Of a stretch of DNA of 32,000 nt, positions 11,760 through 31,716 are shown piece after piece. The notes under the pieces were generated by a model, which did no database searches, was not told where the DNA came from, and saw only the letters and a list, made by a program, of their open reading frames with translations. A program made the translations under genes and the position numbers. Where the stretch lies: NCBI GenBank assembly GCA_965247685.1, contig OZ252021.1, positions 990,001 to 1,022,000 on the forward strand, read 5' to 3'. The stretch's first letter is position 1. The number at the start of each line of letters is the position of its first letter. Origin of the DNA: Bdellovibrionales bacterium. Lineage in GTDB: Bacteria; Bdellovibrionota; Bdellovibrionia; Bdellovibrionales; UBA1609.

Positions 11760-11808
11760 TTTTATTGTAAGAACTAGTTTTTAAGTGATTATTTTGCGGC
11801 TTACTTTT

Positions 11809-12529: not shown

Positions 12530-12577
12530 TTTATTGTAAGAACTAGTTTTTAAGTGACTACTTTGCGGCTTACTTCT

Positions 12578-13102: not shown

Positions 13103-13151
13103 AAATATACCTCTAAATCCTGTGAGAAGATAATCTTCATCTCTTGGGTTA

Positions 13152-13180
13152 AGGATAAAAGTATGAGTATTGAGTGTCAA
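13152..13180 (-). promoter_or_regulatory. Candidate sigma70-type promoter TTGACA-17-TATCCT for family B copy 4
   Basis: Minus strand: TTGACA (13175-13180), a 17-nt spacer, then TATCCT (13152-13157). Confidence 0.4.
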
Positions 13181-13227
13181 TTTTTATCTGTAAAGGAAAA
13201 TTAGTTTTAGATCTTTGTAATATAAAA

Positions 13228-13258
13228 TAAAAAAAAAGGAAGTCTTTCGAGCTTCCCT
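13228..13258 (-). terminator. Rho-independent terminator after family B copy 5
   Basis: Hairpin GGAAGT-ctttcga-GCTTCC (about 13238-13256), flanked by an A-run and a T-run. Confidence 0.55.
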
Positions 13259-13296
13259 TTTTTTTATGAGAATTAGTTTTTAAGTAACTATTCTGT

Positions 13297-13908: not shown

Positions 13909-13941
13909 ATTTCCTCCAAATGATTTTTAGTTACTGATGTT

Positions 13942-13971
13942 AAAAAAAAGGGAGACCTGTCGAGCTTCCTT
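13942..13971 (-). terminator. Weaker hairpin terminator after family B copy 6
   Basis: GGAGAC-ctgtcga-GCTTCC (about 13951-13969) has one mismatch and one G-U pair. It has the same A-run and T-run flanks as the other copies. Confidence 0.4.
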
Positions 13972-14012
13972 TTTTGTTATGAGAATTAGTTTTTAAGTAA
14001 CTATTCTACTGT

Positions 14013-14633
14013 CTAGTTACTACTTTTTTTTTCTGTACCTTCTTCTTTCTTAACTACTACTTGAAGAGTATCACACTCTTGTTTAAGGACACTAAAGCTT
14101 TTAACATTTCCTTTGGGTTCTCTAAGAAGCTCAGCAGTTTCTTCCTTAATAGTCCCAACTTTTATCACCTTTGTCACGATTAACTTATCTGCGCGACAAG
14201 ATTTATTAGAGAAATCTTCAAGATTTGTAGCAATCTCTTTGAAAGAGATAGAAGATATACCATCAGCAAAGTCCTCATCATTGTCTTTTCCTATTTTATT
14301 CACAATATTTTTACTAGACATGCTCGCTTCTGTCGGACTTGATCTTTTAATGTCAGAAAATTGAGCACAGAGGACATCGCCTTCTTCGCCTTTAATCTGA
14401 ACTAAAACATCACTTAAAGAAGAAGCAATATTAACTTCATAGTTGCTATCATAAGGAATACCATTCCAGAAAATATCAATATCTACTGTTTTATATACAC
14501 CATCAAGATCGTTGCAGCCTATTGCTTCCACTGCTCCAATGCCGCTTGCCTCTACAACATCGCTGTCTTCACCACAGTGAACAAGAAATAATGTCACAAA
14601 CCCCACAGCAACAATTTTAACTAAGTTTTTCAT
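14013..14633 (-). CDS. Family B putative lipoprotein, copy 6 (second leader type)
   Basis: Leader MKNLVKIVAVGFVTLFLVHCGEDSD. Motifs: CNDLDGVY, YEVNIASSLSDVLVQIK, C.QF, C.A, FSVLKQECDTL. Confidence 0.8.
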   Translation of the reverse strand: MKNLVKIVAVGFVTLFLVHCGEDSDVVEASGIGAVEAIGCNDLDGVYKTVDIDIFWNGIPYDSNYEVNIASSLSDVLVQIKGEEGDVLCAQFSDIKRSSPTEASMSSKNIVNKIGKDNDEDFADGISSISFKEIATNLEDFSNKSCRADKLIVTKVIKVGTIKEETAELLREPKGNVKSFSVLKQECDTLQVVVKKEEGTEKKSSN

Positions 14634-14919: not shown

Positions 14920-15777
14920 CTATATACAAGGGTGTGTTTTTCGCCATTCGGAGAAGAAGGTCTCTGGATTAGGTGGATTTTCTTGTGTCTCAAGTTCACT
15001 GCTTTTGAATCGGATTGCCTCACTAGATTGTCGCAGTTCATTAGTCAAAAATACAGTCATACTTTCTAATGTTCCTGTATCTGCCGCCGTAATGACGCGA
15101 ATTTCTTTCATAATGGTATATGCATCTTCAATAGGGTCACCTTGCTCATCCATTTGTACTAAGGATTGGGCTTTGTAAGTCGTGTGCATACTACTGCTAC
15201 TTTGGTCGTTATAGCCTCTATCTATCATTTGTTGAGAGTCAACAATAGTAAAATCGCTCAATAGTATACAAAATCCTCCAGACACTTGAGGATCATTGGA
15301 GCGCATATGGAACATTAAAATATCGGATGTAGCGCTGTATGCGACAACAATCTTTGTAGCAAGATTAGTTTTCCAGAAATCTAGCCAGCCCCAGTAGACA
15401 TCCACATTTTTTTGGTACACTCCTGTAATCTGCTCAAGCTGTTTTGCAAATGTTGCAAATGATGGAGCAACAGACATATTGTCTTGAGGCTCTTTTGGTG
15501 GAGGTGTTTGTTGAGATGGTTGACGGATTTCTGTTGGCTGTTCAGTCTCTTTCTGCTGTTTTTGGAACGGAGCTTCATTAGAAGGAGCTTCATTAGAAGG
15601 AACTACATTAGAAGGAACTACATTAGAAGGAACTACATTATCATTAGAAGGAGCTTCAGATTCTGCAGGTTTTCCCGTCTTTATCTTTTGTTTTTGAGAC
15701 GGAGTCTCAAGTCCTGGATCCGATCCTGAGCAGGAGATATAAAACAAAACCAACACAAAAGAAATTACAAATTTCAT
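14920..15777 (-). CDS. Family C lipoprotein, most divergent copy (P/S/N pentapeptide-repeat linker)
   Basis: Leader MKFVISFVLVLFYISCSGS (hydrophobic core followed by Cys). VVPSN/EAPSN repeats. The conserved C-domain runs from PSFATFAKQLEQITGVY to RFKSSE...FFSEWRKTHPCI. Confidence 0.8.
   Translation of the reverse strand: MKFVISFVLVLFYISCSGSDPGLETPSQKQKIKTGKPAESEAPSNDNVVPSNVVPSNVVPSNEAPSNEAPFQKQQKETEQPTEIRQPSQQTPPPKEPQDNMSVAPSFATFAKQLEQITGVYQKNVDVYWGWLDFWKTNLATKIVVAYSATSDILMFHMRSNDPQVSGGFCILLSDFTIVDSQQMIDRGYNDQSSSSMHTTYKAQSLVQMDEQGDPIEDAYTIMKEIRVITAADTGTLESMTVFLTNELRQSSEAIRFKSSELETQENPPNPETFFSEWRKTHPCI
15571..15655 (-). repeat. 15-nt in-frame tandem repeat (about 5-6 units) encoding EAPSN/VVPSN
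   Basis: Plus strand shows cattagaaggagctt / cattagaaggaacta repeated head to tail. The translation is NDNVVPSNVVPSNVVPSNEAPSNEAP. Confidence 0.85.
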
Positions 15778-16011
15778 AGAATTTCTCCAAAATAAAAAGT
15801 TCTCGAAGTGTATTTTTAGGTCAGATTTTAACTTTTGTCAATAAAAAAGGGCGGTCTTCAGATCAGAATGGATGTTCAAAACACTAAAATCACTTAATAA
15901 AATAGCAAAACCGTTTCCATTTATATCATAATTTAACAGTTCTAAATATTCAATAAGAAATTCAGATTGATCGTCTACGGAGATTCGATCACCTCCGAGG
16001 TTCCTCTTCTG

Positions 16012-16947
16012 TTATATAAATCTACAAGGGGATTTATTCAGCTGTTCGGAGAAAAAGGCCTCTGGATCAGACGATATTTCCTCACTACTACGTTCACTGC
16101 TTTCGAATCGGAATGGGCTCAACACCTGGGTGAATCCACCAATCAGGCGGGAAGGAATCAGAAGACATATATACAAAATCTTCCAGGCTTGCTAGCATCC
16201 ATGGAGCGCATCCAGACCATTAAAGTATCAAAGTTAGGGCTGTATGCGAATAACAATCCTTACAGAAAGATCAGCTTTCCAAAAGTCATACGGGAACCAT
16301 TCCCAGTAGACATTCATTTTTTTGTGGTACACTCCTGTAATCTGCTCAAGCTGTTTTGCAAATGATGGAGAAGCAGACGTTGGAAGCTCTTGTTGTTCAG
16401 AGTTTTGTTGAAGTTCATTTTAACAAAAACCTGAATAAAATCGACAAAGTACAGATACTTCGTGTTCAAAATAGTGAGCTCTTTTTTCAAATTCTGCAAA
16501 TTCTTGTTCAAATTCTGCAAATTCTTGTAGAAATTGTTCAAATTCTTGTTCAAATTCTTGTTCACGTGTTTCAGATAGACTGTTTTCAGGTTTTTGTTTA
16601 AATTCTGCATATTCTTGTTTTAATTGTGCATAGTCTTGTAGAAATTCTGCATATTCTTGTTTTAATTGTGCATAGTCTTGTTCAAATTGTTCATATTGTT
16701 CAAAGTCATTTTGAGGTTGTTTAGATTCTTGTAGAAGTGTTCCAGGTAGAAGTGCTTCAGTTTCTTGTTGAGGTTGTTCAGAGTTTTGTTGAAATTGTTT
16801 CATTTGTTGTTCGGTTTTTTGTTGAATTTGTTCAGTTTCTTTTCGAAGTTGTTCAATTTGTTGTTGAGACGGAGTCTCAAGTCCTGGATCCGATCCTGAG
16901 CAGGAGATATAAAACAAAACCAACACAAAAGAAATTACAAATTTCAT
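16012..16947 (-). pseudogene. Family C lipoprotein pseudogene (nonsense codon, 1-nt insertion and ~257-nt internal deletion)
   Basis: The 5' part (ORF 16420..16947) has an intact leader identical to that of the 14920 copy. An in-frame TAA lies at 16420-16422. Downstream, the same frame continues with NELQQNSEQQELPTSASPSFAKQLEQITGVYHKK.., then there is an extra A near 16250 relative to paralogs. The domain core is missing between about 16175 and its flank. The canonical end ..SPCRFI-stop is at 16012. Confidence 0.75.
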
Positions 16948-17179
16948 AGAATTTCTCCAAAATAAAAAGTTCTCGAAGTGTATTTTAGGTCAGATTTTAA
17001 CTTTTGTCAATAAAAAAGGGCGGTCTTCAGATCAGAATGGATGTTCAAAACACTAAAATCACCTAATAAAATAGCAAAATCGTTTCCATTTATTTCATAT
17101 TTAACAGTTCTAAATATTCAATGAGAAATTCAGATTGATCGTCTACGGAGATTCGATCACCTCCGAGGTTCCTCTTCTG

Positions 17180-18385
17180 TTATATAAATCTACAAGGGGA
17201 TTTATTCAGCTGTTCGGAGAAGAAGGCCTCTGGATCAGATGGTATTTCCTCACTACGTTCACTGCTTTTGAATCGGAATGGCTCAACACCTGAGTGAATC
17301 CAATCAGGCGGGGCGCTGAAGTAAGCAGACATATATAAAGTCATGCTTTCTAATTCTCCTGTATCTGTGACGAAAAGAGAAATGAATCTCGTCGTATTTT
17401 CTACATCTCCCACCTGGTCCAGACCCTCTCTTAATCCTTGAATGTAGCCATGTTCATTATTCATCTGAAGTTCCTTCACCCACTCTTTTTTTAAGGATCG
17501 GGCTTCGTAAATCGTGTGGGTACTCTCGTTGCGACCTTCATCGTCTATATAGTCTGGCTCAAAGTCAGCAATATTAAAATCGCTCAATAGTACACAAAAT
17601 CTTCCAGGCTCGCTAGCATCCATGGAGCGTATCCAGAACATTAAAGTATCGGACATAGGGCTGTATGCGAGAACAGTCTTTGTAGAAAGATCAGCTATCC
17701 AAGAGTCATACGGGAACCATGACCAGTAGACATCCACTTTTTTGTGGTACACTCCTGTAATCTGCTCAAGCTGTTTTGCAAATGATGGAGGAGCAGGAGA
17801 AGCAGACGTTGGAAGCTTTTGTTGTTTGGTTTGTTGTTGAGGCGGAGTCTCAGTTTCTTTTTGAATTTCTTCAATGTCTTCTTTAGTTTCTTGTTTAATT
17901 TCTTCAATTTGTTGTTCAGATTTTTGTTTAATTTCTTTAATTTGTTGTCCAGATTTTTGTTTAATTTCTTTAATTTGTTGTGGAGGCGGAGTCTCAGTTT
18001 CTTTTTGAATTTCTTCAATGTCTTTTTTAGTTTCTTTTTGAATTTCTTCAATGTCTTCTTTAGTTTCTTGTTTAATTTCTTCAATTTGTTGTTCAGATTT
18101 TTGTTTAATTTCTTTAATTTGTTGTCCAGATTTTTGTTTAATTTCTTTAATTTGTTGTGGAGGCGGAGTCTCAGTTTCTTTTTGAATTTCTTCAATGTCT
18201 TTTTTAGTTTCTTTTTGAATTTCTTCAATGTCTTCTGTAGTTTCTTGTTTAATTTGTTGAATTTGTTGTTCAGATTTTTGTTGAATTTGTTTAATCTGTT
18301 GTTGAGGTGGAGTCTCAAGTCCTGCATTCGATCCTGAGCAGGAGACATAAAAGAAAACCAACACAAAAGAAAATACAAATTTCAT
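17180..18385 (-). CDS. Family C lipoprotein, longest copy (401 aa)
   Basis: Leader MKFVFSFVLVFFYVSCSGS, a long QQIKEIKQKS/EDIEEIQKET repeat stalk, and a conserved C-domain ending FFSEQLNKSPCRFI. GGAGAA lies ~6 nt before the ATG. Confidence 0.85.
   Translation of the reverse strand: MKFVFSFVLVFFYVSCSGSNAGLETPPQQQIKQIQQKSEQQIQQIKQETTEDIEEIQKETKKDIEEIQKETETPPPQQIKEIKQKSGQQIKEIKQKSEQQIEEIKQETKEDIEEIQKETKKDIEEIQKETETPPPQQIKEIKQKSGQQIKEIKQKSEQQIEEIKQETKEDIEEIQKETETPPQQQTKQQKLPTSASPAPPSFAKQLEQITGVYHKKVDVYWSWFPYDSWIADLSTKTVLAYSPMSDTLMFWIRSMDASEPGRFCVLLSDFNIADFEPDYIDDEGRNESTHTIYEARSLKKEWVKELQMNNEHGYIQGLREGLDQVGDVENTTRFISLFVTDTGELESMTLYMSAYFSAPPDWIHSGVEPFRFKSSERSEEIPSDPEAFFSEQLNKSPCRFI
17805..18313 (-). 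repeat. Nested in-frame tandem repeats (177-nt units built from 33-nt and shorter sub-repeats)
   Basis: tggaggcggagtctcagtttc occurs at 17981 and again at 18158, a period of 177 nt (59 codons). A shorter third unit starts near 17836. Confidence 0.9.
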
Positions 18386-18582
18386 AGAATTTCTCCAAAA
18401 AAAAAGGTTCTCAAAGTATATTTTCGGGTCAGATTTTAACTTTTGTCAATAAAAAAGAGAGTCCGTCAGATCAAAATGGGTATTCAAAACACTAAAATCA
18501 CTTAATAAAATAGCAAAACCGTTTCCATTTATATCATAATTTAACAGTTCTAAATATTCAATAAGAAATTCAGATTGATCAC

Positions 18583-19680
18583 CTACTGAGATTTGATCGT
18601 CTGAGATACGTTGTTGATGATCGTCGTCCACTTCTTAACTGTGATCTTCACCAGAGGTTTATCTATAAATCTACAAGGGGATTTATTCAGCTGTTCGGAG
18701 AAGAAGGCCTCTGGATCAGATGGTATTTCCTCACTACGTTCACTGCTTTTGAATCGGAATGGCTCAACACCTGGGTGAATCCACCAATCAGGCGGGAAGG
18801 AATCAGAAGACATATATACAGTCATGCTTTCTAATTTTCCTGTATCTGTGACGAAAAGAGAAATGAATCTCGTCGTACTCTCTACATCTCCCACCCTGTA
18901 CAGATTCTCTTTTAATCCTTGCCTGTAGTCATCGGTACTATTATGCTGATGCTCCTCCTTCCACTCGTTTTTTAAGGATTTGGCTTCGTAAACCGTGAGG
19001 GTACTCCCGCTGCGACCTTCATAGTCTATATAGTCTGGCTCAAAGCCAGCAATATTAAAATCGCTCAATAGTACACAAAATCTTCCAGGCTCGCTAGCAT
19101 CCATGGAGCGCATCCAGACCATTAAAGTATCAAAGTTAGGGCTGTATGCGAGAACAATCTTTGTAGAAAGATCAGCTATCCAAGAGTCATACGGGTACCA
19201 AAGCCAGGTGACATCTTTTTTTTTGTGGTACACTCCTGTAATCTGCTCAAGCTGTTTCGCAAATGATGGAGGAGCAGACGTTGGAAGCTTTTGTTGTTTG
19301 ATTTGTTGTGGAGGCGGAGTCTCAGCTTCTTTTTGAATTTCTTCAATGTCTTCTGTAGTTTCTTGTTTAATTTGTTGAATTTGTTGTTCAGATTTTTGTT
19401 TAATTTCTTTAATTTGTTGTTCAGATTTTTGTTTAATTTCTTTAATTTGTTGTGGAGGCGGAGTCTCAGTTTCTTTTTGAATTTCTTCAATGTCTTTTTT
19501 AGTTTCTTTTTGAATTTCTTCAATGTCTTCTGTAGTTTCTTGTTTAATTTGTTGAATTTGTTGTTCAGATTTTTGTTGAATTTGTTTAATCTGTTGTTGA
19601 GGTGGAGTCTCAAGTCCTGCATTCGATCCTGAGCAGGAGACATAAAAGAAAACCAACACAAAAGAAAATACAAATTTCAT
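18583..19680 (-). CDS. Family C lipoprotein with C-terminal read-through extension
   Basis: The first 86 aa are identical to the 17180..18385 copy in the ORF track. The canonical ..SPCRFI end is followed by DKPLVKITVKKWTTIINNVSQTIKSQ instead of a stop. Confidence 0.8.
   Translation of the reverse strand: MKFVFSFVLVFFYVSCSGSNAGLETPPQQQIKQIQQKSEQQIQQIKQETTEDIEEIQKETKKDIEEIQKETETPPPQQIKEIKQKSEQQIKEIKQKSEQQIQQIKQETTEDIEEIQKEAETPPPQQIKQQKLPTSAPPSFAKQLEQITGVYHKKKDVTWLWYPYDSWIADLSTKIVLAYSPNFDTLMVWMRSMDASEPGRFCVLLSDFNIAGFEPDYIDYEGRSGSTLTVYEAKSLKNEWKEEHQHNSTDDYRQGLKENLYRVGDVESTTRFISLFVTDTGKLESMTVYMSSDSFPPDWWIHPGVEPFRFKSSERSEEIPSDPEAFFSEQLNKSPCRFIDKPLVKITVKKWTTIINNVSQTIKSQ
19285..19608 (-). repeat. 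Q/E/K/I-rich in-frame tandem repeats (stalk region)
   Basis: Uses the same sub-repeat vocabulary as 17805..18313 (QQIKEIKQKSEQQI, EDIEEIQKE, ETPPPQQ) but with fewer units. Confidence 0.85.
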
Positions 19681-19890
19681 AGAATTTCTCCAAAAAAAAG
19701 GTTCTCAAAGTATATTTTCGGGTCAGATTTTAACTTTTGTCAATAAAAAAGAGAGTCCGTCAGATCAAAATGGGTATTCAAAACACTAAAATCACTTAAT
19801 AAAATAGCAAAACCGTTTCCATTTATATCATAATTTAACAGTTCTAAATATTCAATGAGAAATTCAAATTGATCACCTACTGAGATTTGA

Positions 19891-20895
19891 TCACCAGAGA
19901 GATTTATCTATAAATCTACAAGGGGATTTATTCAGCTGTTCGGAGAAGAAGGCCTCTGGATCAGATGGTATTTCCTCACTACTACGTTCACTGCTTTTGA
20001 ATCGGATTGGCTCTACACCTGAATGAAACCAAGCAGGCTTGAAGATCGTCCTGAACATCATATAAGGAAACATATATACAGTCATGCTTTCTAATTCTCC
20101 TGTATCTGTGACGAAAAGAGAAATGAATCTCGTCGTACTATCTGCATCTCCCACCTGGTTCAGATCCTCTTTTAATCCTTGCCTGTAGTCATCGATACTA
20201 TTATGCTGAAGCTCCTCCTTCCACTCGCTTTTTAAGTATTTGGCTTCGTAAACCGTGAGGGTACTCCCGTTGTGACCTTCATCGTCTGTATAGTCTGGCT
20301 CAAAGCCAGCAATACTAAAATTGCTCAATAGTGTACAAAATCTTCCAGGATCGTCAGCATCCATGGAGCGTATCCAGAACATTAAAGTATCAGAGTTAGG
20401 GCTGTATGCGAGAACAATCTTTGTAGAAAGATCAGCTTTCCAAAAGTCATAAGGGTACCATAACCAGTAGACATCCACTTTTTTGTGGTACACTCCTGTA
20501 ATCTGCTCAAGCTGTTTTGCAAATGATGGAGGAGCAGGAGAAGCAGACGTTGGAAGCTCTTGCGGTTTGGTTTGTTGTTGAGACGGAGTCTTAGTTTCTT
20601 TTTGAACTTGTTCAATTTGTCGTATAGTTTCTTTTTGAATTTTTTCAATTTCTACTTTATTTTCTTGTTTAATTTGTTCAATTTCTTCTTTAGTTTCTTG
20701 TTCGGTTTGTTGTCCAGATTCTTGTTGAAGTTGTTCAATTTGTTGTTCGGTTTTTTGTTGAATTTCTTTAATTTGTTGTCCAGATTTTTGTTGAATTTCT
20801 TTAATTTGTTGTTGAGGTGGAGTCTCAAGTCCTGCATCCAATCCTGAGCAGGAGACATTAAACAAAACCAACACAAAAGAAAATAAAAATTTCAT
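19891..20895 (-). CDS. Family C lipoprotein
   Basis: Leader MKFLFSFVLVLFNVSCSG, a less regular Q/E/K/I stalk, a conserved C-domain, and the end ..SPCRFIDKSLW. Confidence 0.85.
   Translation of the reverse strand: MKFLFSFVLVLFNVSCSGLDAGLETPPQQQIKEIQQKSGQQIKEIQQKTEQQIEQLQQESGQQTEQETKEEIEQIKQENKVEIEKIQKETIRQIEQVQKETKTPSQQQTKPQELPTSASPAPPSFAKQLEQITGVYHKKVDVYWLWYPYDFWKADLSTKIVLAYSPNSDTLMFWIRSMDADDPGRFCTLLSNFSIAGFEPDYTDDEGHNGSTLTVYEAKYLKSEWKEELQHNSIDDYRQGLKEDLNQVGDADSTTRFISLFVTDTGELESMTVYMFPYMMFRTIFKPAWFHSGVEPIRFKSSERSSEEIPSDPEAFFSEQLNKSPCRFIDKSLW
20545..20823 (-). repeat. Imperfect Q/E/K/I-rich low-complexity repeats (stalk region)
   Basis: The translation QQIKEIQQKSGQQIKEIQQKTEQQIEQLQQESGQQTEQETKEEIEQIKQENKVEIEKIQKETIRQIEQVQKET is degenerate relative to the other copies. 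Confidence 0.7.
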
Positions 20896-21127
20896 AGAAT
20901 TTCTCCAAAATAAAAAGTTCTCGAAATGTATTTTTAGGTCAGATTTTAACTTTTGTCAATATAAAGAGAGTCCGTCAGATCAAAATGGGTATTCAAAACA
21001 CTAAAAGCATTTAATAAAATAACAAAACCGTTTCCATTTATTTCATACTTAACAGTTCTAAATATTCAATAAGAAATTCAGATTGATTGTCTGCTGAGAT
21101 TCGATCACCTCCGAGGTTCCTCTTCTG

Positions 21128-22165
21128 TTATATAAATCTACAAGGGGATTTATTCAGCTGTTCGGAGAAGAAGACCTCTGAATCAGATGGTATTTCCTCA
21201 CTACGTTCACTGCTTTTGAATCGGATTGGCTCAACACCTGGGTGAACCCAATCCTGCCGGAAGGTAGAGGAAGAAGACATATATAAAGTCATGCTTTCTA
21301 ATTTTCCTGTATCTGTGACGAAAAGAGAAATGAATCTCGTTATACTCTCTACATCTCCCACCCTGTGTAGTTTATCTTTTACTCCTTGATTGTAGTCATC
21401 GAGATTATTATTCTGAAGCTCCTTCACCCACTCTTTTTTTAAGGATCGGGCTTCGTAAATCGTGTGGGTACTCTCGTTGCGACCTTCATCGTCTATATAG
21501 TCTGGATAGTCTAGCTCAAAGCCAGCAATAATATTAAAATCGCTCAATAGTACACAAAATCTTCCAGGCTTGCCAACATCCATGGAGCGCATCCAGACCA
21601 TTAAAGTATCGGACATAGAGCTGTATGCGATAACAATCCTTACAGGAAGATCAGCTTTCCAAAAGTCATACGGGTACCAATTCCAGTAGACATCCACTGT
21701 TTTGTGGTACACTCCTGTAATCTGCTCAAGCTGTTTCGCAAATGATGGAGGAGCAGACGTTGGAAGCTTTTGTTGTTTGATTTGTTGTGGAGGCGGAGTC
21801 TCAGCTTCTTTTTGAATTTCTTCAATGTCTTCTGTAGTTTCTTGTTTAATTTGTTGAATTTGTTGTTCAGATTTTTGTTTAATTTCTTTAATTTGTTGTC
21901 CAGATTTTTGTTGAATTTGTTTGATTTGTTGTGGAGGCGGAGTCTCAGTTTCTTTTTGAATTTCTTCAATGTCTTCTGTAGTTTCTTGTTTAATTTGTTG
22001 AATTTGTTGTTCGGTTTTTTGTTTAATTTGTTTAATTTGTTGTCCAGATTTTTGTTTAATTTCTTTAATTTGTTTTTGTTGTTGAGATGGAGTCTCAAGT
22101 TCTGCATCCAATCCTGAGCAGGAGACATAAAACAAAATCAACACAAAAGAAAATAAAAATTTCAT
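21128..22165 (-). CDS. Family C lipoprotein (first copy in transcription order)
   Basis: Leader MKFLFSFVLILFYVSCSG, a repeat stalk, and a conserved C-domain ending ..SPCRFI. Confidence 0.85.
   Translation of the reverse strand: MKFLFSFVLILFYVSCSGLDAELETPSQQQKQIKEIKQKSGQQIKQIKQKTEQQIQQIKQETTEDIEEIQKETETPPPQQIKQIQQKSGQQIKEIKQKSEQQIQQIKQETTEDIEEIQKEAETPPPQQIKQQKLPTSAPPSFAKQLEQITGVYHKTVDVYWNWYPYDFWKADLPVRIVIAYSSMSDTLMVWMRSMDVGKPGRFCVLLSDFNIIAGFELDYPDYIDDEGRNESTHTIYEARSLKKEWVKELQNNNLDDYNQGVKDKLHRVGDVESITRFISLFVTDTGKLESMTLYMSSSSTFRQDWVHPGVEPIRFKSSERSEEIPSDSEVFFSEQLNKSPCRFI
21750..22093 (-). repeat. Q/E/K/I-rich in-frame tandem repeats (stalk region)
   Basis: QQIK[EQ]IKQK[ST][EG]QQI..IKQETTEDIEEIQKE[TA]ETPPPQQ appears twice in the translation. 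Confidence 0.85.
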
Positions 22166-26295: not shown

Positions 26296-26498
26296 CGAAC
26301 TGATACTAAGCTTTTTTTCATCAATCGTGCAAGCTCTTCAGACGATAGACCTTATTGGAATGTCAGGATTGCCCATTCATGTTCAATGGAATGGAGTTTG
26401 AGGAGGGGAGGGGTCTTGAGGGAAAAATTAGGAGATATTTATATAGAACCTCATTGATTATTTGGTCTGATAATTATATTCTTTCTGTTAGTTTCGAT

Positions 26499-26574
26499 GG
26501 CGGTCGTAGTTCAATGGTAGAGCGCCAGATTGTGGTTCTGGTTGTTGCGGGTTCGAATCCCGTCGATCGCCCCA
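26499..26574 (+). tRNA. tRNA-His (GTG anticodon)
   Basis: Hand-folded cloverleaf. The extra G at -1 (26499) pairs with discriminator C. Acceptor stem is GCGGTCG/CGATCGC. Anticodon stem is CCAGA/TCTGG with loop TTGTGGT. T-loop is TTCGAAT. The CCA end is encoded. Confidence 0.9.
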
Positions 26575-26649
26575 TTTCGCATTTTATTCTGATAGATCGA
26601 ATTTTATTACTCTAATCACCATGTGTATAGAGTGTAATAAGTACATAGA

Positions 26650-28083
26650 TTAGTTTTTTTTCCGTTTCCAACCAGATTCAATTAGTTTTTTAAATTTTTC
26701 TCTATTGCCAAATAACAACTCTCTTAAGACTGAAACATTTTTATATGTATTTATCATGTTTCCTCCAAAAATTTTATCCGCCAACTCTTTTTGCCCTTTT
26801 TTACCCTTGTAATCTTCAAATTTGTGGGTTTTAAAATATTCAATCAATTTATAAAATTGATCAGAAGTTCCTAAGAAAACTTTCCAGCCTAATTTCGAAA
26901 ACTCTTCCTTTGATAAAACAGCAGAGACATTCTGAAAAGCTTGTAACATTCGTCCACTGTGATACAATTTTGCATACTCAGCATAACCAATCGGACCTTT
27001 AAATTTCTCTTGAGAACCTTGAATTCTGTCTCTTTCTATTCTAAATTCCTCTGTAGATCCTTGGTAACCTTTCCAGCCTAATTTCGAAAACTCTTCCTTT
27101 GATAAAACAGCAGAGACATTCTTAAAAGCTTTAAACATTTGTCCCTTATAGTACCTCTTTGCATACTTAGCGCAACCCTTCATACCTGTAAAATCTTCTT
27201 TAGGATCCAGAATTCTACCTCTTTCTTTTCTAAACTCTTGTGTAGTTCCTTGGTAACCTTGCCATTCTAATTGCAAAAATTCTTCCTTTGATAAAACAAC
27301 TGAGACATTCTTAAAAGCTTTAGGCATATTTCCAGAATAGTACCTACCTGCATACTCAGCACAACCCTTCATACCTGTAAAATCTTCTTTAGGATCCAGA
27401 ATTCTACCTCTTTCTTTTCTAAACTCTTGTGTAGTTCCTTGATAAGCTTTCCAACCTAATTTCGAAAATTCTTCCTTTGATAAAACAACTGAGACATTCT
27501 GAAAAGCTTTAGGCATATTTCCAAAATAGTACTCGTGTGCATACCAAGCGTAGCCATCCATGTCTGTAAAATCTTCTTCAAAATCCAGAATTCTATCTCT
27601 TTCTTGTCTGAACTCCTCTGTAGTTCCTTGGTATTGTTTCCAGCCTAATTTCAAAAACTCTTCCTTTGATAAAACAGCTGAGACATTGTGATAAGATTTG
27701 TGCATATTTCCAAAAAGGTACTCGAGTGCATACTCAGCGCAACCCTTCATACCTGTAAAATCTTTTTTAGAATTCAGAATTCTATCTCTTTCTTGTCTGA
27801 ATTCTGCTGTAGTTCCTCGGTAAGCTTGCCAACCTAATTTCAAAAATTCTCCCTTTGGTAAATGATTAGATATTTTTTTAAAAACAGTATCCATTTTTAG
27901 ATATGGATACCTCTCTTCTACAAACTGTAAATATCCCTTTTGCCCTCTATACTCTTGTAGATCAGAACTACTTATAAGAATGGAGGGGTTGAGTGTTGTT
28001 ATTGCTTTTGCACAAAGGTTTGCAAAAGCAAAAGGACAGAATAAAAGAATCAATAAAAGCACAGAATAAAAATGTTGAATCAT
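26650..28083 (-). CDS. Family D secreted tandem-repeat protein (five full 63-aa repeats), function unknown
   Basis: Signal peptide MIQHFYSVLLLILLFCPFAFA. The repeat is FR.ER.RIL....DFTGMKGCAEYA..Y..GNM.KAF.NVS.VLSKEEF.KLGWK.YQGTT.E. The N- and C-termini are shared with 28173..28850. Confidence 0.8.
   Translation of the reverse strand: MIQHFYSVLLLILLFCPFAFANLCAKAITTLNPSILISSSDLQEYRGQKGYLQFVEERYPYLKMDTVFKKISNHLPKGEFLKLGWQAYRGTTAEFRQERDRILNSKKDFTGMKGCAEYALEYLFGNMHKSYHNVSAVLSKEEFLKLGWKQYQGTTEEFRQERDRILDFEEDFTDMDGYAWYAHEYYFGNMPKAFQNVSVVLSKEEFSKLGWKAYQGTTQEFRKERGRILDPKEDFTGMKGCAEYAGRYYSGNMPKAFKNVSVVLSKEEFLQLEWQGYQGTTQEFRKERGRILDPKEDFTGMKGCAKYAKRYYKGQMFKAFKNVSAVLSKEEFSKLGWKGYQGSTEEFRIERDRIQGSQEKFKGPIGYAEYAKLYHSGRMLQAFQNVSAVLSKEEFSKLGWKVFLGTSDQFYKLIEYFKTHKFEDYKGKKGQKELADKIFGGNMINTYKNVSVLRELLFGNREKFKKLIESGWKRKKN
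26857..27801 (-). repeat. 189-nt in-frame tandem repeat, 5 units
   Basis: The protein repeat of 63 aa was counted directly. Adjacent DNA units are nearly identical in places, for example the two FRKERGRILDPKEDFTGMKGCA units. Confidence 0.85.
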
Positions 28084-28172
28084 TTTTTGCGCCCCTTTTT
28101 TTAATGCAGATATATTTTTTCAACTTTTATTACTCTAATCACCGTGTGTATAGAGTGTAATAAGTACATAGA

Positions 28173-28850
28173 TTAGTCTTTTTTGAATGTCCAACCAGAT
28201 TTCATTAGGTTTTTAAATTCTTTTCTATCACCAAATAACAACTCACTTAAGACTGAAACATTTCTATAAGTATTCACTATTTGTCCTCCAAAAATTTTAT
28301 TCGCCAACTTTCTTTGCCTTTTTTTACCCTTGTAATCTTCAAATTTGTGGGTTTTAAAATATTCAATCAATTTATAAAATTGATCAGAAGTTCCTATGAA
28401 GGCTTTCCAGCCTAATTTCGAAAATTCTTCTTTTGATAAAACTGCAGAGACATTCTTAAAAGCTTTAGGCATATTTCCAAAAAGGTGCTCGAGCGCATAC
28501 TCAGCGTAACCCTTCATACCTGTAAAATCTTCTTCAGAATCCAGAATTCTGTCTCTTTCTTGTCTGAATTCTGCTGTAGTTCCATGATATGCTTTCCAAC
28601 CTAATTTAAAAAAATTTTGCTTTGATAAAGATTTAGATATTTTTAGAAAAACAGTATCCATTTTTAGATATGGATACCTCTTTTCTACAAACTTTAAATA
28701 TCCATTTTGCCCCCTATACTCTTGTAGATCAGAACTACTTATAAGAATGGAGGGGTTGAGTGTTGTTATTGCTTCTGCACAAAGGTTTGAAAAAGCAAAA
28801 GGACAAAATAAAAGAATCAATAAAAGCATAGAATAAAAGTGTTGAATCAT
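28173..28850 (-). CDS. Family D secreted repeat protein, short paralog (one full repeat)
   Basis: The start is set at the internal Met (MIQHFYSMLLLILLFCPFAFS; CAT at 28848-28850) by alignment with the long paralog. The upstream 89 nt are duplicated from 28084-28172. Confidence 0.8.
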   Translation of the reverse strand: MIQHFYSMLLLILLFCPFAFSNLCAEAITTLNPSILISSSDLQEYRGQNGYLKFVEKRYPYLKMDTVFLKISKSLSKQNFFKLGWKAYHGTTAEFRQERDRILDSEEDFTGMKGYAEYALEHLFGNMPKAFKNVSAVLSKEEFSKLGWKAFIGTSDQFYKLIEYFKTHKFEDYKGKKRQRKLANKIFGGQIVNTYRNVSVLSELLFGDRKEFKNLMKSGWTFKKD

Positions 28851-28937
28851 TTTTTGTGTCCCTGTTTTTAATGCAGATATATTTTTTTCAACTTTTACCA
28901 CTCTAATCACCGTGTGTATAGAGTGTAATAAGTACAT

Positions 28938-28970
28938 AGATTAATCTTTTTTGAATGTCCAACCAGATAT
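28938..28970 (-). pseudogene. Relic 3' end of a third family D copy (..SGWTFKKD-stop)
   Basis: ttaatcttttttgaatgtccaaccagat repeats the last ~9 codons plus the stop of 28173..28850 (ttagtcttttttgaatgtccaaccagat). It ends ~8 nt from the tRNA-Leu 3' end. Confidence 0.6.
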
Positions 28971-28978
28971 TGAAAAAG

Positions 28979-29064
28979 TGGTGCCTCGGGGGAGACTTGA
29001 ACTCCCACAACCTTACGGTCACATGATTTTGAGTCATGCGCGTCTACCATTCCGCCACCAAGGC
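28979..29064 (-). tRNA. tRNA-Leu (CAA anticodon), long variable arm
   Basis: The reverse complement folds as: acceptor GCCTTGG/CCGAGGC, D-arm GCG-GAATGGTAGA-CGC, anticodon stem CATGA/TCATG with loop CTCAAAA, a ~15-nt variable arm, T-arm GGGAG-TTCAAGT-CTCCC, and an encoded ACCA end. Confidence 0.9.
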
Positions 29065-29211: not shown

Positions 29212-29244
29212 ATGTAGGGTTTTTTAAACAATGAGAGTTTGTAT

Positions 29245-29721
29245 ATGAATGTACAAAAAGTTAAAAGTGAAACATTAGAAGAAAAGATAGCAAAGGTTTG
29301 TGAAGAAATAGGCTGTCGACTTTATTATTTAAGACGAAATGTATCTAGCTTGCAGATTTTTATTGATAAACCAGAGAGTGTTGTCGGTTTATCTGATTGT
29401 GAAAAGGTTTCAAAGAAGCTTAAAATATTTTTACCTCAAGAAGGGTTATCGAGCTCTATAGATTTAGAAGTTTCCAGCCCAGGTGTGGAGAAGATTTTAG
29501 TTTATCCATGGCATTTTTCAGAAGTAGTGGGACAAATGATTCGACTCCAAACTGTATCAGATGAGGGTAAGAATAATTTTTGCGGTCTATTATCGAGTGC
29601 AAACGATCAAGGTGTGGTGCTAAAAAGTGAGAGTCAATCTTGTTCTTTTGCATTTAAAAATATTGAGAAAGCAAGTGTCGTTTTTCAATACTCAAAAAAT
29701 AAACAAGTTCATTCAACATAG
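29245..29721 (+). CDS. rimP: Ribosome maturation factor RimP
   Basis: It carries the LEVSSPGVEKIL motif typical of RimP and sits directly upstream of nusA. I prefer ATG 29245 (GAGAG 8 nt upstream) over the tracked TTG at 29239. Confidence 0.85.
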   Translation: MNVQKVKSETLEEKIAKVCEEIGCRLYYLRRNVSSLQIFIDKPESVVGLSDCEKVSKKLKIFLPQEGLSSSIDLEVSSPGVEKILVYPWHFSEVVGQMIRLQTVSDEGKNNFCGLLSSANDQGVVLKSESQSCSFAFKNIEKASVVFQYSKNKQVHST

Positions 29722-29733
29722 GGTGGGTAGAAA

Positions 29734-31716
29734 ATGTTGTCAGATTTAAGTCGTCTTATTGATCAAGTGAGTAAAGATAAAGGGATTGAGAAAAAAATCG
29801 TTACTGAGGCAATTGTTCAAGGTTTACTGAGCGCTGCTCGTAAAAAGTATGGAACTTATCGAGATATTGAAGCGAAATATAATGATGAAATCGGTGAACT
29901 TGAGCTTTTTGAATTTAAGACAGTCATAAAAGACGATGATTTTGTGGATGATCAAATTGAAATTAAATTATCAGATGCTTTAAAACTTGATCCTGAAGCT
30001 CAAGAAGAAGATCAGATCGGAGTTCGGCTGGAAACTAAGGATTTAGGTCGTATTGATGCACATACAGCAAGACAAATTATTTCTCAAAGTATACGAATCG
30101 CAGAACATCAAATGATTTTTAATGAATTTGAAAAGAGAAAAGGTGAAGTGGTCGGTGGTATAGTTCGTCGTGTAGAGCGGGGAGCAATCGTTGTCGATCT
30201 AGATAAAACAGAATCCTATATTCCTCGAAGAGAGCAGATTCTTGGAGAAAAGTACAAGCCAGGAGATCGTATTCAAGGTTACATTTTAGAGGTGGAGCAA
30301 ACAACAAGAGGCCCTCAAATTATTATGTCTCGGGCTCATCCTGAATATTTAATTAAGCTTTTTGAGTCTGAAGTTCCGGAGATTTATGAAGGAATAGTGA
30401 AAATTAAAAAGGCAGCCAGAGAAGCAGGTCATAGAGCAAAAATTGCAGTGTATAGTTTAGACTCTGCCGTTCATCCTGTGGGTGCTTGTGTGGGGATGAA
30501 GGGGTCTCGTGTTCAAAATATTACTCAAGAACTTAAAGGAGAGCGTATTGATGTAGTCATTTGGGATGAAAACCCTGTGCAATTTGTATGTAACGCTTTA
30601 GCTCCTGCAAAAATTGCTAAAGTTTTTGTGGATGAAGAAAATAGAGCTATGGAAGTAGTAGTTCCCGATGATCAACTCTCTTTAGCTATTGGTAAAAGAG
30701 GACAAAATGTTCGCTTAGCAGTTCAACTGACAGAGTGGAAGATCGATATTTTATCCGAACAAGGTTATGAAGAAAGAAGAAAACATTCCTTGTTTAATTT
30801 ACAGTTGATTCCTCAAGTGAGCGAATCACAAGCACAAAACATCTTTCAATCTGGTGTGCAGACTGTTCAAGAGTTACAGGCTTTAAGCGTTGAAAGAATA
30901 CAAAACATTCCGGGTTATGAATCTGAAGAAAAAGCACAAGCTTTGATTCAGGCCGCTAAAGATTTAGTGATGGAATATAAAAAGCAAAACAAAGAGTTTG
31001 AAATACCTCCGAGCACCGAAGAAGAAGTAAAGAATCAAAAACAATTAGGAGCTCAAGCGCAGGCTGATTTAAGGCTCAAAAGAGAGATGGAAAGATTAAA
31101 ATCTGATGATGAAGAATCTTCAGATGCAGAATCTAAACCTGATGAAAATGGCGAATCGGAGAATCAAAAAGAAGCGGTTTCAGCTCAAGAATCTGAAGAT
31201 ACTCCTACTCAACAAAAAGAAGCGGTCTCTGCTCAAGAATCTGAAGATGCTCCTGCTCAACAAAAAGAAGCGGTCTCTGCTCAAGAATCTGAAGATGCTT
31301 CTGCTCAAAAAGAAGCGGTTTCAGCTCAAGAGTCTGAAGATACTCCTGCTCAACAAAAAGAAACGGTCTCTGCTCAAGAGTCTGAAGATGCTCCTGCTCA
31401 AAAAGAAGCGGTTTCAGCTCAAGAGTCTGAAGATGCTCCTGCTCAAAAAGAAGCGGTCTCTGCTCAAGAATCTGAAGATGCTCCTGCTCAACAAAAAGAA
31501 GCGGTCTCTGCTCAAGAATCTGAAGATGCTTCTGCTCAAAAAGAAGCGGTTTCAGCTCAAGAATCTGAAGATACTCCTACTCAACAAAAAGAAACGGTCT
31601 CTGCTCAAGAGTCTGAAGATGCTCCTGCTCAAAAAGAAGCAAGTCATGATATTGAAGAATCCGTAGAAAATGTAGATAACAAACAAGAAGAGGATTCCTC
31701 TTCCACGGAGAAGTGA
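29734..31716 (+). CDS. nusA: Transcription termination/antitermination factor NusA with a long acidic tandem-repeat C-terminal tail
   Basis: The layout is N-terminal domain, S1, KH1 and KH2 (VGACVGMKGSRVQNI and AIGKRGQNVRLA GxxG loops), followed by one HhH-like segment and ten KEAVSAQESEDAPAQ(Q) repeats. GGTGGG lies before the ATG. Confidence 0.93.
   Translation: MLSDLSRLIDQVSKDKGIEKKIVTEAIVQGLLSAARKKYGTYRDIEAKYNDEIGELELFEFKTVIKDDDFVDDQIEIKLSDALKLDPEAQEEDQIGVRLETKDLGRIDAHTARQIISQSIRIAEHQMIFNEFEKRKGEVVGGIVRRVERGAIVVDLDKTESYIPRREQILGEKYKPGDRIQGYILEVEQTTRGPQIIMSRAHPEYLIKLFESEVPEIYEGIVKIKKAAREAGHRAKIAVYSLDSAVHPVGACVGMKGSRVQNITQELKGERIDVVIWDENPVQFVCNALAPAKIAKVFVDEENRAMEVVVPDDQLSLAIGKRGQNVRLAVQLTEWKIDILSEQGYEERRKHSLFNLQLIPQVSESQAQNIFQSGVQTVQELQALSVERIQNIPGYESEEKAQALIQAAKDLVMEYKKQNKEFEIPPSTEEEVKNQKQLGAQAQADLRLKREMERLKSDDEESSDAESKPDENGESENQKEAVSAQESEDTPTQQKEAVSAQESEDAPAQQKEAVSAQESEDASAQKEAVSAQESEDTPAQQKETVSAQESEDAPAQKEAVSAQESEDAPAQKEAVSAQESEDAPAQQKEAVSAQESEDASAQKEAVSAQESEDTPTQQKETVSAQESEDAPAQKEASHDIEESVENVDNKQEEDSSSTEK
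31166..31640 (+). repeat. 45/48-nt in-frame tandem repeat, 10 units, inside nusA
   Basis: Ten VSAQESED cores were counted in the translation. Units differ at TPT/APA/ASA and by the presence or absence of one Gln codon. Confidence 0.9.

What the first reader, a model, noticed from the sequence alone, without database searches (positions are those of the whole stretch)
26590..28975. tRNA-bracketed mini-array of a secreted 63-aa-repeat protein family with 5-versus-1 repeat copy number
The two minus-strand paralogs share almost identical signal peptides and N-terminal ~70 aa (MIQHFYS.LLLILLFCPFAF.NLCA.AITTLNPSILISSSDLQEYRGQ.GYL.FVE.RYPYLKMDTVF). They also share a C-terminal ~70 aa (..GTSDQFYKLIEYFKTHKFEDYKGKK..).

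They differ by five versus one copy of a 189-nt unit. The unit encodes FR.ER.RIL....DFTGMKG[CY]AEYA..Y..GNM.KAF.NVS.VLSKEEF.KLGWK.YQGTT.E. The N- and C-terminal parts themselves look like degenerate copies of this unit.

The array fills the space between tRNA-His (plus strand) and tRNA-Leu (minus strand). I do not recognise the repeat. Its regular basic/aromatic pattern suggests a solenoid-type binding module.
Basis: partly seen in the sequence, partly recalled or inferred. Interest (0 to 1): 0.7.

Follow-up and report, generated by a model that had tools for sequence, protein, structure and literature searches.

The report
Secreted helical-repeat gene pair in tRNA hotspot
Two neighbouring genes in an uncultured Bdellovibrio-like bacterium encode exported rod-shaped proteins built from one or five copies of a previously undescribed 63-residue helical unit, and they sit in a slot between two tRNA genes that holds different genes in related genomes; their function is unknown but is most likely binding of a prey, host or envelope component.

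Summary
Gene A (26650-28083, minus strand, 477 aa) and gene B (28173-28850, minus strand, 225 aa) share a signal peptide, an N-terminal cap and a C-terminal cap. They differ by five versus one copy of a 189-nt/63-aa unit. Together they fill the space between tRNA-His and tRNA-Leu.

- **Family:** a real, unannotated family with 449 cluster representatives. It was found almost only in MAGs labelled Bdellovibrionales, Bacteriovoracaceae or Oligoflexia. The usual unit is 67 aa, with 1 to about 10 units per protein and up to about 15 paralogs per genome.
- **Known relatives:** none in Pfam, NCBIfam or PDB sequences, and no Foldseek match in PDB or BFVD.
- **Structure:** AlphaFold2 models are confident (pLDDT 91-93, pTM 0.73-0.80). 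They show a continuous all-alpha array of four-helix units.
- **Conserved N-terminus:** a lone Cys-x3-Phe motif follows the signal peptide and is not a lipobox.
- **Locus:** DNA homology to relatives stops exactly at the two tRNA 3' ends. The closest relative carries a zeta-toxin gene in the same slot. A 28-nt remnant of a third gene copy abuts tRNA-Leu.

Most likely these are Sec-exported alpha-solenoid binding proteins that evolve fast by gene and unit duplication, placed in a recombination hotspot. Function is inferred, not shown. Interest is moderate.

The parts
26500..26574 (+). tRNA-His (gtg). Its 3' end is the left boundary of the variable cargo.
   Evidence: ARAGORN; Rfam 64.4 bits. 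blastn homology to L021 covers 26454-26572 and stops there.
26592..26649 (-). Partial (about 48-nt) copy of the inter-gene spacer, downstream of gene A.
   Evidence: Repeat family D3, copy 26592-26677 at 86%; sequence comparison.
26650..28083 (-). Gene A, 477 aa: signal peptide, Cys24, N-cap, five 63-aa units, C-cap.
   Evidence: ORF; register; identical to database protein P0001; AF2 pLDDT 93.0, pTM 0.73.
26860..27804 (-). Five tandem 189-nt units of gene A (residues 94-408).
   Evidence: TRF; register; pairwise DNA identity 72-88%.
26650..26859 (-). C-terminal cap of gene A (residues 409-477), a divergent unit conserved across the family.
   Evidence: Alignments A1 and A5; 89% DNA identity to gene B's cap.
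27805..28020 (-). N-terminal cap of gene A (residues 22-93), with the conserved Cys24-x3 motif and a degenerate unit.
   Evidence: The Cys is at least 90% conserved in alignments A2 and A4.
28021..28083 (-). Predicted Sec signal peptide of gene A (residues 1-21, cleavage AFA|NL).
   Evidence: Hydropathy 3.0 over 12 aa. It forms a separate, lower-confidence helix in the AF2 model. Inference: no SignalP run.
28084..28172 (-). 89-nt spacer between B and A: a shared downstream part plus a shared upstream/RBS part.
   Evidence: family D3.
28173..28850 (-). Gene B, 225 aa: signal peptide, Cys24, N-cap, one unit (28383-28571), C-cap. The database call (P0167) uses an upstream start at 28937, giving 254 aa.
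   Evidence: AF2 pLDDT 91.5, pTM 0.80.
28851..28940 (-). Third copy of the spacer, upstream of gene B.
   Evidence: D3 copy 28883-28968, 97%.
28941..28968 (-). 28-nt remnant of the 3' end of a third family gene (..SGWTFKKD, stop).
   Evidence: Read directly; repeat family D3.
28979..29064 (-). tRNA-Leu (caa). Its 3' end is the right boundary of the cargo. It lies divergent from rimP and is conserved in relatives.
   Evidence: blastn homology to L019, L020 and L021 starts at 28969-28979.
29239..31716 (+). rimP-nusA, the conserved flank used to find relatives. Not part of the feature itself.

Best explanation
Genes A and B encode Sec-exported, basic, rigid all-alpha tandem-repeat (solenoid-like) proteins. 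They belong to a so far unannotated family confined to uncultured, small-genome Bdellovibrionota.

**Architecture.** Each mature protein has:
- an N-terminal cap carrying one conserved cysteine (C-x3-F);
- n four-helix units of 63-73 residues;
- a C-terminal cap.

**Proposed function.** The unit array most likely forms an extended binding surface for a repetitive or large ligand. Candidates are a prey, host or own envelope polymer, or a protein. Unit number sets the length and valency of that surface. The lone cysteine may tether or dimerise the rod.

**Evolution.** The family evolves by tandem gene duplication and by gain or loss of units through recombination between units. This is consistent with recognition-type proteins under relaxed or diversifying selection.

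**This locus.** The pair, formerly at least a triplet, is the cargo of a recombination hotspot bounded by the 3' ends of tRNA-His and tRNA-Leu, upstream of rimP-nusA-infB. The slot holds other genes in relatives.

**What is shown and what is inferred.**
- Shown: anatomy, family distribution, lack of known relatives, predicted fold class, hotspot boundaries.
- Inferred: export, binding function, role of the cysteine, the kind of selection.
For: **Anatomy**
- Gene structure, units and caps.

**Family**
- 91 hits in the first protein search and 449 cluster representatives at E<=1e-3, of which 201 at E<=1e-30.
- About 700 units were detected. The modal unit length is 67 aa, with invariant or near-invariant G25-Y-A, M38, N44-V-S-A-V-L and W59.
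- Complete one-unit members also occur in other genomes.

**Taxonomy**
- Record titles read 'Bdellovibrionales', 'Bacteriovoracaceae' or 'Oligoflexia' MAG.

**Leader**
- 73 of 92 proteins have a hydrophobic N-terminal segment.
- 75 of 91 have a C-x2-[AVS..]-[FIV] motif shortly after it. Only 2 of these are lipobox-like.

**Fold**
- AF2 gives pLDDT 91.5 / pTM 0.80 for B and 93.0 / 0.73 for A. Both are all-alpha, with the same four-helix pattern in every unit.
- A high pTM for a 477-residue array argues for fixed geometry between units.

**No known relatives**
-.

**Composition and rate**
- pI is 9.4-9.6; the family median is 9.06.
- dN/dS between A and B is 0.82 overall, and 1.4-1.5 in the mature N-cap and the C-cap.

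**Arrays elsewhere**
- Six paralogs lie in tandem in L022, against one at the same menF-menD site in L002.
- By shared contig length, up to about 15 paralogs fall on one 2.59-Mb chromosome.

**Hotspot**
- tRNA-Leu divergent from rimP is conserved in L019, L020 and L021.
- L021 has the same tRNA-His...tRNA-Leu bracket, filled with a zeta-toxin gene.
- Homology to relatives breaks exactly at the tRNA 3' ends.
- No family member was found in those three loci.
- A remnant of a third gene copy is present.
Against: - No experimental or annotation-based functional evidence exists for any member.
- No ligand is indicated by gene neighbourhood. The contexts are unrelated to each other.
- Export rests on sequence features only.
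- One strong family member (P0185) lacks a signal peptide and is fused to two OmpR-type DNA-binding domains. The repeat is therefore not exclusively extracytoplasmic.
- dN/dS near 1, measured on about 225 codons, cannot separate diversifying selection from relaxed constraint.
- Model coordinates could not be inspected, so 'rod' or 'superhelix' rests on pTM and secondary structure only.
Confidence: 0.55

Rival explanations
1. The repeat is a modular nucleic-acid-binding solenoid, analogous in logic to TALE, PPR, PUF or mTERF. It would be delivered to prey or host, or used in the periplasm, with each unit contacting a fixed number of nucleotides.
For: - The proteins are basic (pI about 9).
- The helical array is predicted to be rigid.
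- Unit number is variable.
- One member is fused to two OmpR-type winged-helix DNA-binding domains.
Against: - The unit is 63-73 aa, not 30-38 aa.
- A two-half-unit substructure is not statistically supported (hhalign E=0.15).
- No one or two hypervariable 'code' positions stand out in the unit profile.
- There is no Pfam or Foldseek similarity to TALE, PPR, PUF or mTERF.
- A Sec leader delivers to the periplasm, where nucleic acid is not an obvious ligand.
- My impression that P0111 has mTERF-like flanks was not confirmed by Pfam.
Confidence: 0.08
2. The proteins are structural components of the bacterium's own envelope. Examples would be periplasmic spacers or rulers, or proteins anchored or dimerised through the conserved cysteine, with rod length set by unit number. 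In this reading they are not prey or host recognition factors.
For: - They have an ordinary Sec leader with no recognisable effector-secretion signal.
- A single cysteine near the mature N-terminus is conserved in more than 80% of members.
- The predicted geometry is rigid.
Against: - The closest relatives of this genome appear to lack the family.
- Copy number ranges from 2 to about 15 per genome, and evolution is fast (dN/dS about 0.8-1.5). This is atypical for core envelope architecture.
- The genes sit in a replaceable hotspot.
Confidence: 0.2
3. Gene B is a decaying, non-functional leftover of unequal recombination, and the array is neutral debris in a hotspot. Gene A could be the same.
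For: - dN/dS between A and B is close to 1.
- A truncated third copy shows that copies are being lost.
- B's single unit is an A1/A5 chimera, as expected from a deletion between units.
Against: - Both ORFs are intact, with leader, caps and all family-invariant residues.
- Complete one-unit members occur independently in other genomes: P0149, P0155, P0169, P0175, P0182.
- Both genes give AF2 models with pLDDT above 91.
- The upstream spacer, with its putative RBS, is conserved.
Confidence: 0.12
4. The 5-versus-1 difference in unit number is an assembly artefact, from collapse or expansion of a repeat.
For: None positive. Tandem repeats are generally a risk for assemblers, and read data could not be checked.
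Against: - The units differ from one another by 12-28% at the DNA level, so they are not easily collapsed.
- The two genes have diverged by about 10% throughout.
- The gene lies on a 1.28-Mb contig. Sister records are chromosome-level assemblies with long-read-style contig names.
- The family shows every unit number from 1 to about 10.
Confidence: 0.04

Closest known systems
Sel1-like repeat (SLR) and TPR proteins of host-associated bacteria (e.g. Helicobacter Hcp proteins, Legionella LpnE/EnhC). From my own knowledge.
   Same: - Sec-exported, all-alpha tandem-repeat proteins.
- Multi-paralog families with variable repeat number, used as binding scaffolds.
- Related genomes carry a secreted protein with a sub-threshold Sel1 hit in the very same slot (L020, 28.0 bits against a cut-off of 30.7).
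   Different: - The unit is 63-73 aa with four helices, not a 34-44-aa helical hairpin.
- No Sel1 or TPR Pfam hit for genes A and B or for the family members scanned.
- Foldseek matches to TPR/SLR structures are not significant (E>0.1, TM<0.2).
- The disulfide pairs typical of SLR proteins are absent. There is only one conserved cysteine per protein.
Capped alpha-solenoid repeat architecture in general (ankyrin, HEAT/ARM, designed helical repeat proteins). From my own knowledge.
   Same: - Divergent N- and C-terminal capping units flank near-identical internal units.
- Geometry between units is predicted to be rigid.
   Different: - There is no sequence or fold match.
- The unit is longer.
- The family is confined to one bacterial phylum.
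tRNA-associated genomic islets and variable hotspots
   Same: - The cargo is delimited exactly by tRNA 3' ends and differs between relatives: repeat-protein genes here, a zeta-toxin gene in L021.
   Different: - There is no integrase.
- There is no duplicated tRNA 3' segment (att repeat).
- The slot lies between two converging tRNA genes rather than next to one.
- The cargo is only 2.4 kb.
Contingency and variable surface-protein gene arrays with intragenic repeat-number variation (e.g. staphylococcal/streptococcal repeat adhesins, Mycoplasma Vlp/Vsa). From my own knowledge.
   Same: - Tandem paralogs.
- In-frame gain and loss of units.
- Elevated dN/dS.
   Different: - The units are diverged (72-88% identical), not near-identical, so rapid slippage is unlikely.
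- No phase-variation switch was seen.
- The proteins are helical rather than beta-rich or disordered.

Membership tests
Unnamed Bdellovibrionota 63-73-aa helical-repeat family (this family) | Internal units with the conserved G-Y-A...M-x-K-A-F-x-N-V-S-A-V-L...L-G-W-Q...G pattern. | tested here: met
   Genes A and B carry it in every unit. Column profile of 172 units of 67 aa. Hits reach E down to 1e-242.
Unnamed Bdellovibrionota 63-73-aa helical-repeat family (this family) | Hydrophobic N-terminal leader followed by a single conserved C-x3-F motif and a degenerate N-cap unit. | tested here: met
   C24 is at least 90% conserved in alignments A2 and A4. In this window the residue at +4 is I (CAKAI / CAEAI), as in 9 of 75 members.
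Unnamed Bdellovibrionota 63-73-aa helical-repeat family (this family) | Conserved C-terminal cap (W-x-F-x-G-T-x2-Q-F...G-x2-G-Q...A-x2-I-F...Y-x-N-V-S-x-L...W). | tested here: met
   Alignment A1: invariant W58, G63, F75, Y105, S109, W130.
Sel1-like / TPR repeats | Match to the Pfam Sel1/TPR models at or near the gathering score. | tested here: not met
   No such hit at E<=1 for A or B, nor for the 10 family members scanned.
Sel1-like / TPR repeats | 34-44-residue two-helix unit. | tested here: not met
   The period is 63-73 aa. The two halves of the unit are not significantly similar (hhalign E=0.15 over 7 columns).
Sel1-like / TPR repeats | Structural superposition on solved TPR/SLR solenoids. 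| tested here: inconclusive
TALE / PPR / PUF / mTERF-type modular nucleic-acid-binding repeats | 30-38-residue unit with one or two specificity-determining hypervariable positions. | tested here: not met
   The unit is 63-73 aa. Variability is spread over many positions. There are no Pfam hits.
TALE / PPR / PUF / mTERF-type modular nucleic-acid-binding repeats | Binding of DNA or RNA. | not testable with these tools
   Only indirect hints: pI about 9 and a wHTH fusion in P0185.
Bacterial lipoproteins | Lipobox [LVI][ASTVI][GAS]C at the end of the signal peptide. | tested here: not met
   The sequence before Cys24 in genes A and B is ANL / SNL. Only 2 of 75 family members are lipobox-like.
tRNA-targeted integrative island | Integrase or recombinase gene within the island. 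| tested here: not met
   Only the two family genes lie between the tRNAs. They have no Pfam hit.
tRNA-targeted integrative island | Direct repeat of the tRNA 3' end at the far border (attL/attR). | tested here: not met
   The 24-nt tRNA-Leu 3' end occurs once in the window, allowing up to 3 mismatches. No such repeat appears.
tRNA-targeted integrative island | Presence or absence, or replacement, of the cargo between relatives, with breakpoints at the tRNA. | tested here: met
   Homology breaks at 26572 and 28978/28979. L021 carries a zeta-toxin gene instead.

The most novel reading that the evidence does not exclude
The 63-73-aa unit is a new protein fold. It would form a programmable, length-tunable solenoid that reads a repetitive polymer (nucleic acid, peptidoglycan/glycan strand or lipopolysaccharide) one unit per ligand repeat. 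Small-genome Bdellovibrionota would deploy it as their main prey or host recognition or manipulation toolkit. The conserved N-terminal cysteine would covalently anchor or dimerise the rods.
Probability: 0.08. Interest if true: 0.8.

Novelty: new variant of a known kind. Interest (0 to 1): 0.42.

Why it matters
- **A marker for an uncultured lineage.** If the family mediates prey or host recognition, it would be a lineage-specific molecular handle on the lifestyle of uncultured small-genome (1.1-2.8 Mb) Bdellovibrionota. Nothing functional is known about these organisms.
- **Possible new fold.** The unit gives very confident structure predictions yet has no detectable relative in Pfam or the PDB. 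It is a candidate new helical repeat fold and a potential scaffold for protein design.
- **Clean hotspot example.** The locus is a small, integrase-free replacement hotspot bounded by two tRNA 3' ends.
- **Limit.** None of this overturns current understanding; it adds a new family to a familiar category.

Tried and rejected
- **Family libraries.** Pfam, NCBIfam, PHROGs and PADLOC scans gave only sub-threshold artefacts in which no single stretch passes. These come from summing weak matches over repeats.
- **PDB sequence searches.** Single sequence and profile: nothing below E=0.1.
- **Foldseek.** Both models against PDB, and model B against BFVD: no match at E<=0.001.
- **Internal duplication.** The idea that the unit is two 32-aa half-units was rejected for lack of support (hhalign E=0.15).
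- **mTERF-like flanks in P0111.** Not supported by Pfam.
- **Lipoprotein reading of the conserved Cys.** Rejected.
- **Classical integrative island.** Rejected: no integrase and no att repeat.
- **tRNA adjacency as a family trait.** Rejected: most other loci have no nearby tRNA.
- **Close relatives for repeat-number typing.** None were found.
  - The exact-protein look-up for gene A's product failed.
  - Single-protein scans of genome and metagenome contigs found nothing.
  - The profile scan of JGI metagenomes gave two short contigs.
  - The best RimP relative is only 66% identical.
- **Third protein search.** Run with a single-unit profile, it returned four unnamed fragments.
- **Literature.** Full-text searches for the motif strings found nothing relevant.
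- **Promoter and terminator scans.** No more sites than in shuffled sequence for promoters. The terminator-like hairpins lie inside the coding sequence.
Full report
**1. The observation**

The window contains two minus-strand ORFs at 26650-28083 (477 aa, gene A) and 28173-28937. For the second, the start that matches gene A (MIQHFYS...) is at 28850, giving 225 aa (gene B). The public gene call uses the upstream ATG and gives 254 aa (P0167).

ARAGORN and Rfam place tRNA-His(gtg) at 26500-26574(+) and tRNA-Leu(caa) at 28979-29064(-). Tandem Repeats Finder reports a 189-nt period with 5.3 copies, 83% matches and score 1169 at 26866-27862.

In a 63-residue register, gene A has five units (residues 94-408) and gene B has one.
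- Units are 72-88% identical to each other at the DNA level.
- The shared N-terminal 93 codons are 91% identical between the two genes. The C-terminal 70 codons are 89% identical.
- The N-terminal (about residues 45-93) and C-terminal (409-472) parts align as divergent units.

**2. Extra anatomy**

- The 89-nt spacer between B and A recurs upstream of B. Its first 48 nt or so also recur downstream of A.
- Directly against the 3' end of tRNA-Leu lies a 28-nt remnant of the 3' end of a third gene copy (...SGWTFKKD-stop, 28941-28968). The array therefore once had at least three genes.
- B's single unit resembles unit A1 over its first 108 nt and unit A5 over its last 27 nt. This is what unit loss or gain by recombination between units would leave.
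- Nei-Gojobori dN/dS between A and B is 0.82 overall: 0.22 in the signal peptide and 1.4-1.5 in the mature N-cap and the C-cap. The sample is small, so this cannot separate relaxed from diversifying selection.

**3. The family**

A word-indexed search found 91 unnamed homologues (E down to 1e-242). An exhaustive profile search of 1.84 billion cluster representatives found 449 at E<=1e-3, of which 201 at E<=1e-30.

A unit HMM finds about 700 units in the 91 proteins.
- The modal unit length is 67 aa, with a range of 62-73. The 63-aa unit of this window lacks four loop residues.
- The most conserved positions are F2, R6, L10, G14, Y20, G22, G25-Y26-A27, A30, M38, N44-V-S-A-V-L49, L57, W59-Q60 and G64.
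- Proteins hold from 1 canonical unit (P0149, P0155, P0169, P0175, P0182) to about 10.

Judged by shared contig length, single chromosomes carry up to about 15 paralogs. One locus has six in tandem (L022).

Record titles of the GTDB-representative genomes that hold the family read 'MAG: Bdellovibrionales bacterium', 'Bacteriovoracaceae bacterium' or 'Oligoflexia bacterium'. Several are complete 1.4-2.8-Mb chromosomes. One bin labelled Burkholderiales is the exception. JGI metagenomes yielded only two short contigs.

**4. Export signal and conserved cysteine**

Genes A and B have an N-terminal segment with a 12-residue Kyte-Doolittle mean of 2.9-3.0, against at most 1.1 elsewhere in the protein. 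It ends in AFA|N or AFS|N. Of the 92 sequences checked, 73 have such a segment. Most of the rest are N-terminally truncated gene calls or fragments; a few fall just under the cut-off.

In 75 of 91 proteins, a cysteine in the context C-x2-[AVS]-[FIV] follows within about 3-30 residues. Only 2 of these look like a lipobox. Most mature proteins contain exactly one cysteine.

Export by the Sec pathway with signal peptidase I is therefore the best reading, but it is inference. One strong member (P0185, E=1e-61) has no leader and instead carries two OmpR-type winged-helix domains. The repeat can therefore also work in the cytoplasm, apparently as the non-DNA-binding partner domain.

**5. Structure**

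With a 74-sequence alignment, AlphaFold2 gives the following.

| Gene | pLDDT | pTM |
|---|---|---|
| B | 91.5 | 0.80 |
| A | 93.0 | 0.73 |

Both models are entirely alpha-helical. Each unit repeats the same pattern: helices of about 13, 12, 11 and 7 residues, sometimes with a short extra turn. Single bridge residues link successive loops. The signal peptide forms a separate helix of lower confidence.

A pTM of 0.73 for a 477-residue repeat array implies a defined geometry between units, that is a continuous solenoid-like rod rather than beads on a string. I could not inspect the coordinates.

**6. Comparison with what is known**

- Pfam, NCBIfam, PHROGs and PADLOC give nothing above threshold.
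- PDB sequences give nothing, either by single sequence or by profile.
- Foldseek of both models against the PDB, and of B against BFVD, gives no match at E<=0.001. The best matches have TM<=0.2.
- A two-half-unit substructure, which would have linked the unit to 30-40-aa hairpin repeats, is not supported (hhalign E=0.15).
- Full-text searches for the motif strings found nothing relevant.

The family is thus unannotated and, as far as these tools can see, unrelated to known repeat families. In kind it resembles capped alpha-solenoid binding proteins such as Sel1-like or TPR proteins.

**7. The locus**

RimP homologues identify the nearest available relatives: 66%, 61% and 56% identity. NusA is 82-88% identical in these genomes.
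- All three keep tRNA-Leu(caa) divergent from rimP.
- L021 also keeps purL-purQ-purB, a lipoprotein-like paralog array and a tRNA-His...tRNA-Leu bracket. Its 2.2-kb cargo is a zeta-toxin gene plus a 53-codon ORF.
- L019 and L020 have tRNA-Gly...tRNA-Leu. Their cargo is a set of different secreted helical-repeat proteins: one with an 83-aa unit, one with a sub-threshold Sel1 hit. These nevertheless share the 'signal peptide + C-x3-F' leader.

blastn homology between the window and these loci begins at 28969-28979, at or within about 10 nt of the tRNA-Leu 3' end. For L021 it ends at 26572, the tRNA-His 3' end. None of the three loci contains a family member. No protein in the hit list lies on a contig of the lengths of those genomes.

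There is no integrase and no att-like duplication of the tRNA end. The slot is therefore an integrase-free replacement hotspot.

A distant genome (NusA 56% identical) also has a family member next to rimP (L001). Most other family loci are unrelated to tRNAs or to rimP.

**8. Interpretation**

The best-supported reading (confidence about 0.55) is that A and B are Sec-exported, basic (pI 9.4-9.6), rigid alpha-solenoid proteins. Their unit array would provide an extended binding surface, with length set by unit number. The family would diversify by tandem gene duplication and unit gain and loss, and this copy would sit in a tRNA-bounded hotspot.

What is shown:
- the anatomy;
- the distribution of the family;
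- the lack of known relatives;
- the predicted fold class;
- the hotspot boundaries.

What is inferred:
- export;
- ligand binding, and the nature of the ligand;
- the role of the cysteine (dimerisation or tethering);
- the kind of selection.

Rivals:
- an own-envelope structural role (0.2);
- decay of gene B as a non-functional leftover (0.12), weakened by the independent one-unit members in other genomes;
- a nucleic-acid-binding code-like repeat (0.08);
- an assembly artefact (0.04).

**9. Verdict**

- It is a new sequence family, and possibly a new fold, within a familiar category: secreted helical tandem-repeat proteins in a variable locus.
- Interest is moderate. It would rise sharply if the unit proved to read a polymer in a modular way, or if the family were shown to be the prey or host recognition toolkit of these uncultured predators or parasites.

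Noticed in passing
window 31165-31639 (within nusA, 29734-31716 +): NusA carries a C-terminal acidic tail of about 10 tandem 48-nt (16-aa, QKEAVSAQESEDAPAQ-like) repeats (TRF). NusA is 660 aa here, against 512-567 aa in the three closest relatives.
   Followed up: partly
window 10127-14633 and 14920-22165 (minus strand): Two arrays of lineage-specific lipoprotein-like paralogs with leaders ending in C-G or C-S-G. One array has six genes of about 190-220 aa. The other has six genes whose N-terminal halves are Q/K/E/I-rich tandem repeats with periods of 33-177 nt. L021 has five related paralogs after purL-purQ-purB.
   Followed up: partly
window 28941-28968: A 28-nt remnant of the 3' end of a third family gene (..SGWTFKKD-stop) plus a third copy of the 89-nt spacer, abutting the tRNA-Leu 3' end.
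   Followed up: yes
window 27886-27911 and 28653-28678: A 9-bp-stem inverted repeat (GGTATCCAT...ATGGATACT) followed by a T-run lies inside the N-cap coding region of both genes (codons for RYPYLKMDTVF). It scores as terminator-like on both strands. It is probably just part of the duplicated coding sequence.
   Followed up: no
L019 7238-9652 and L020 8295-9665: The slot upstream of tRNA-Leu/rimP in the two closest relatives holds different secreted helical-repeat proteins: an 804-aa protein with about 83-aa units, and a 456-aa protein with a sub-threshold Sel1 hit. Both begin with the same 'signal peptide + C-x3-F' leader as the family studied here. This may be a shared sorting or anchoring signal.
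   Followed up: partly
L021 8318-9262: A zeta-toxin-domain gene (314 aa), with no obvious epsilon-type antitoxin called next to it, occupies the tRNA-His/tRNA-Leu slot in the relative with the closest NusA.
   Followed up: no
L002 12468-14393: Next to family member P0005 lie a DarT-Macro fusion gene and a gene with a weak DOT1 (eukaryote-type histone methyltransferase) hit. This hints at a host-associated or conflict-rich lifestyle for these small-genome Bdellovibrionota.
   Followed up: no
L022 8118-19010 and L002 10001-12457: At the same site, downstream of menF-menD, one genome has six family paralogs in tandem and another has a single 818-aa member. Gene-number variation at a fixed site therefore also occurs elsewhere.
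   Followed up: partly
protein P0185 (no locus fetched): This family member has no signal peptide and carries two N-terminal OmpR-type winged-helix DNA-binding domains ahead of the repeats.
   Followed up: partly
L003 157-4674: A cas9-cas1-cas2 cluster, with an uncalled stretch after it, lies about 3 kb upstream of family member P0010. It is probably unrelated.
   Followed up: no
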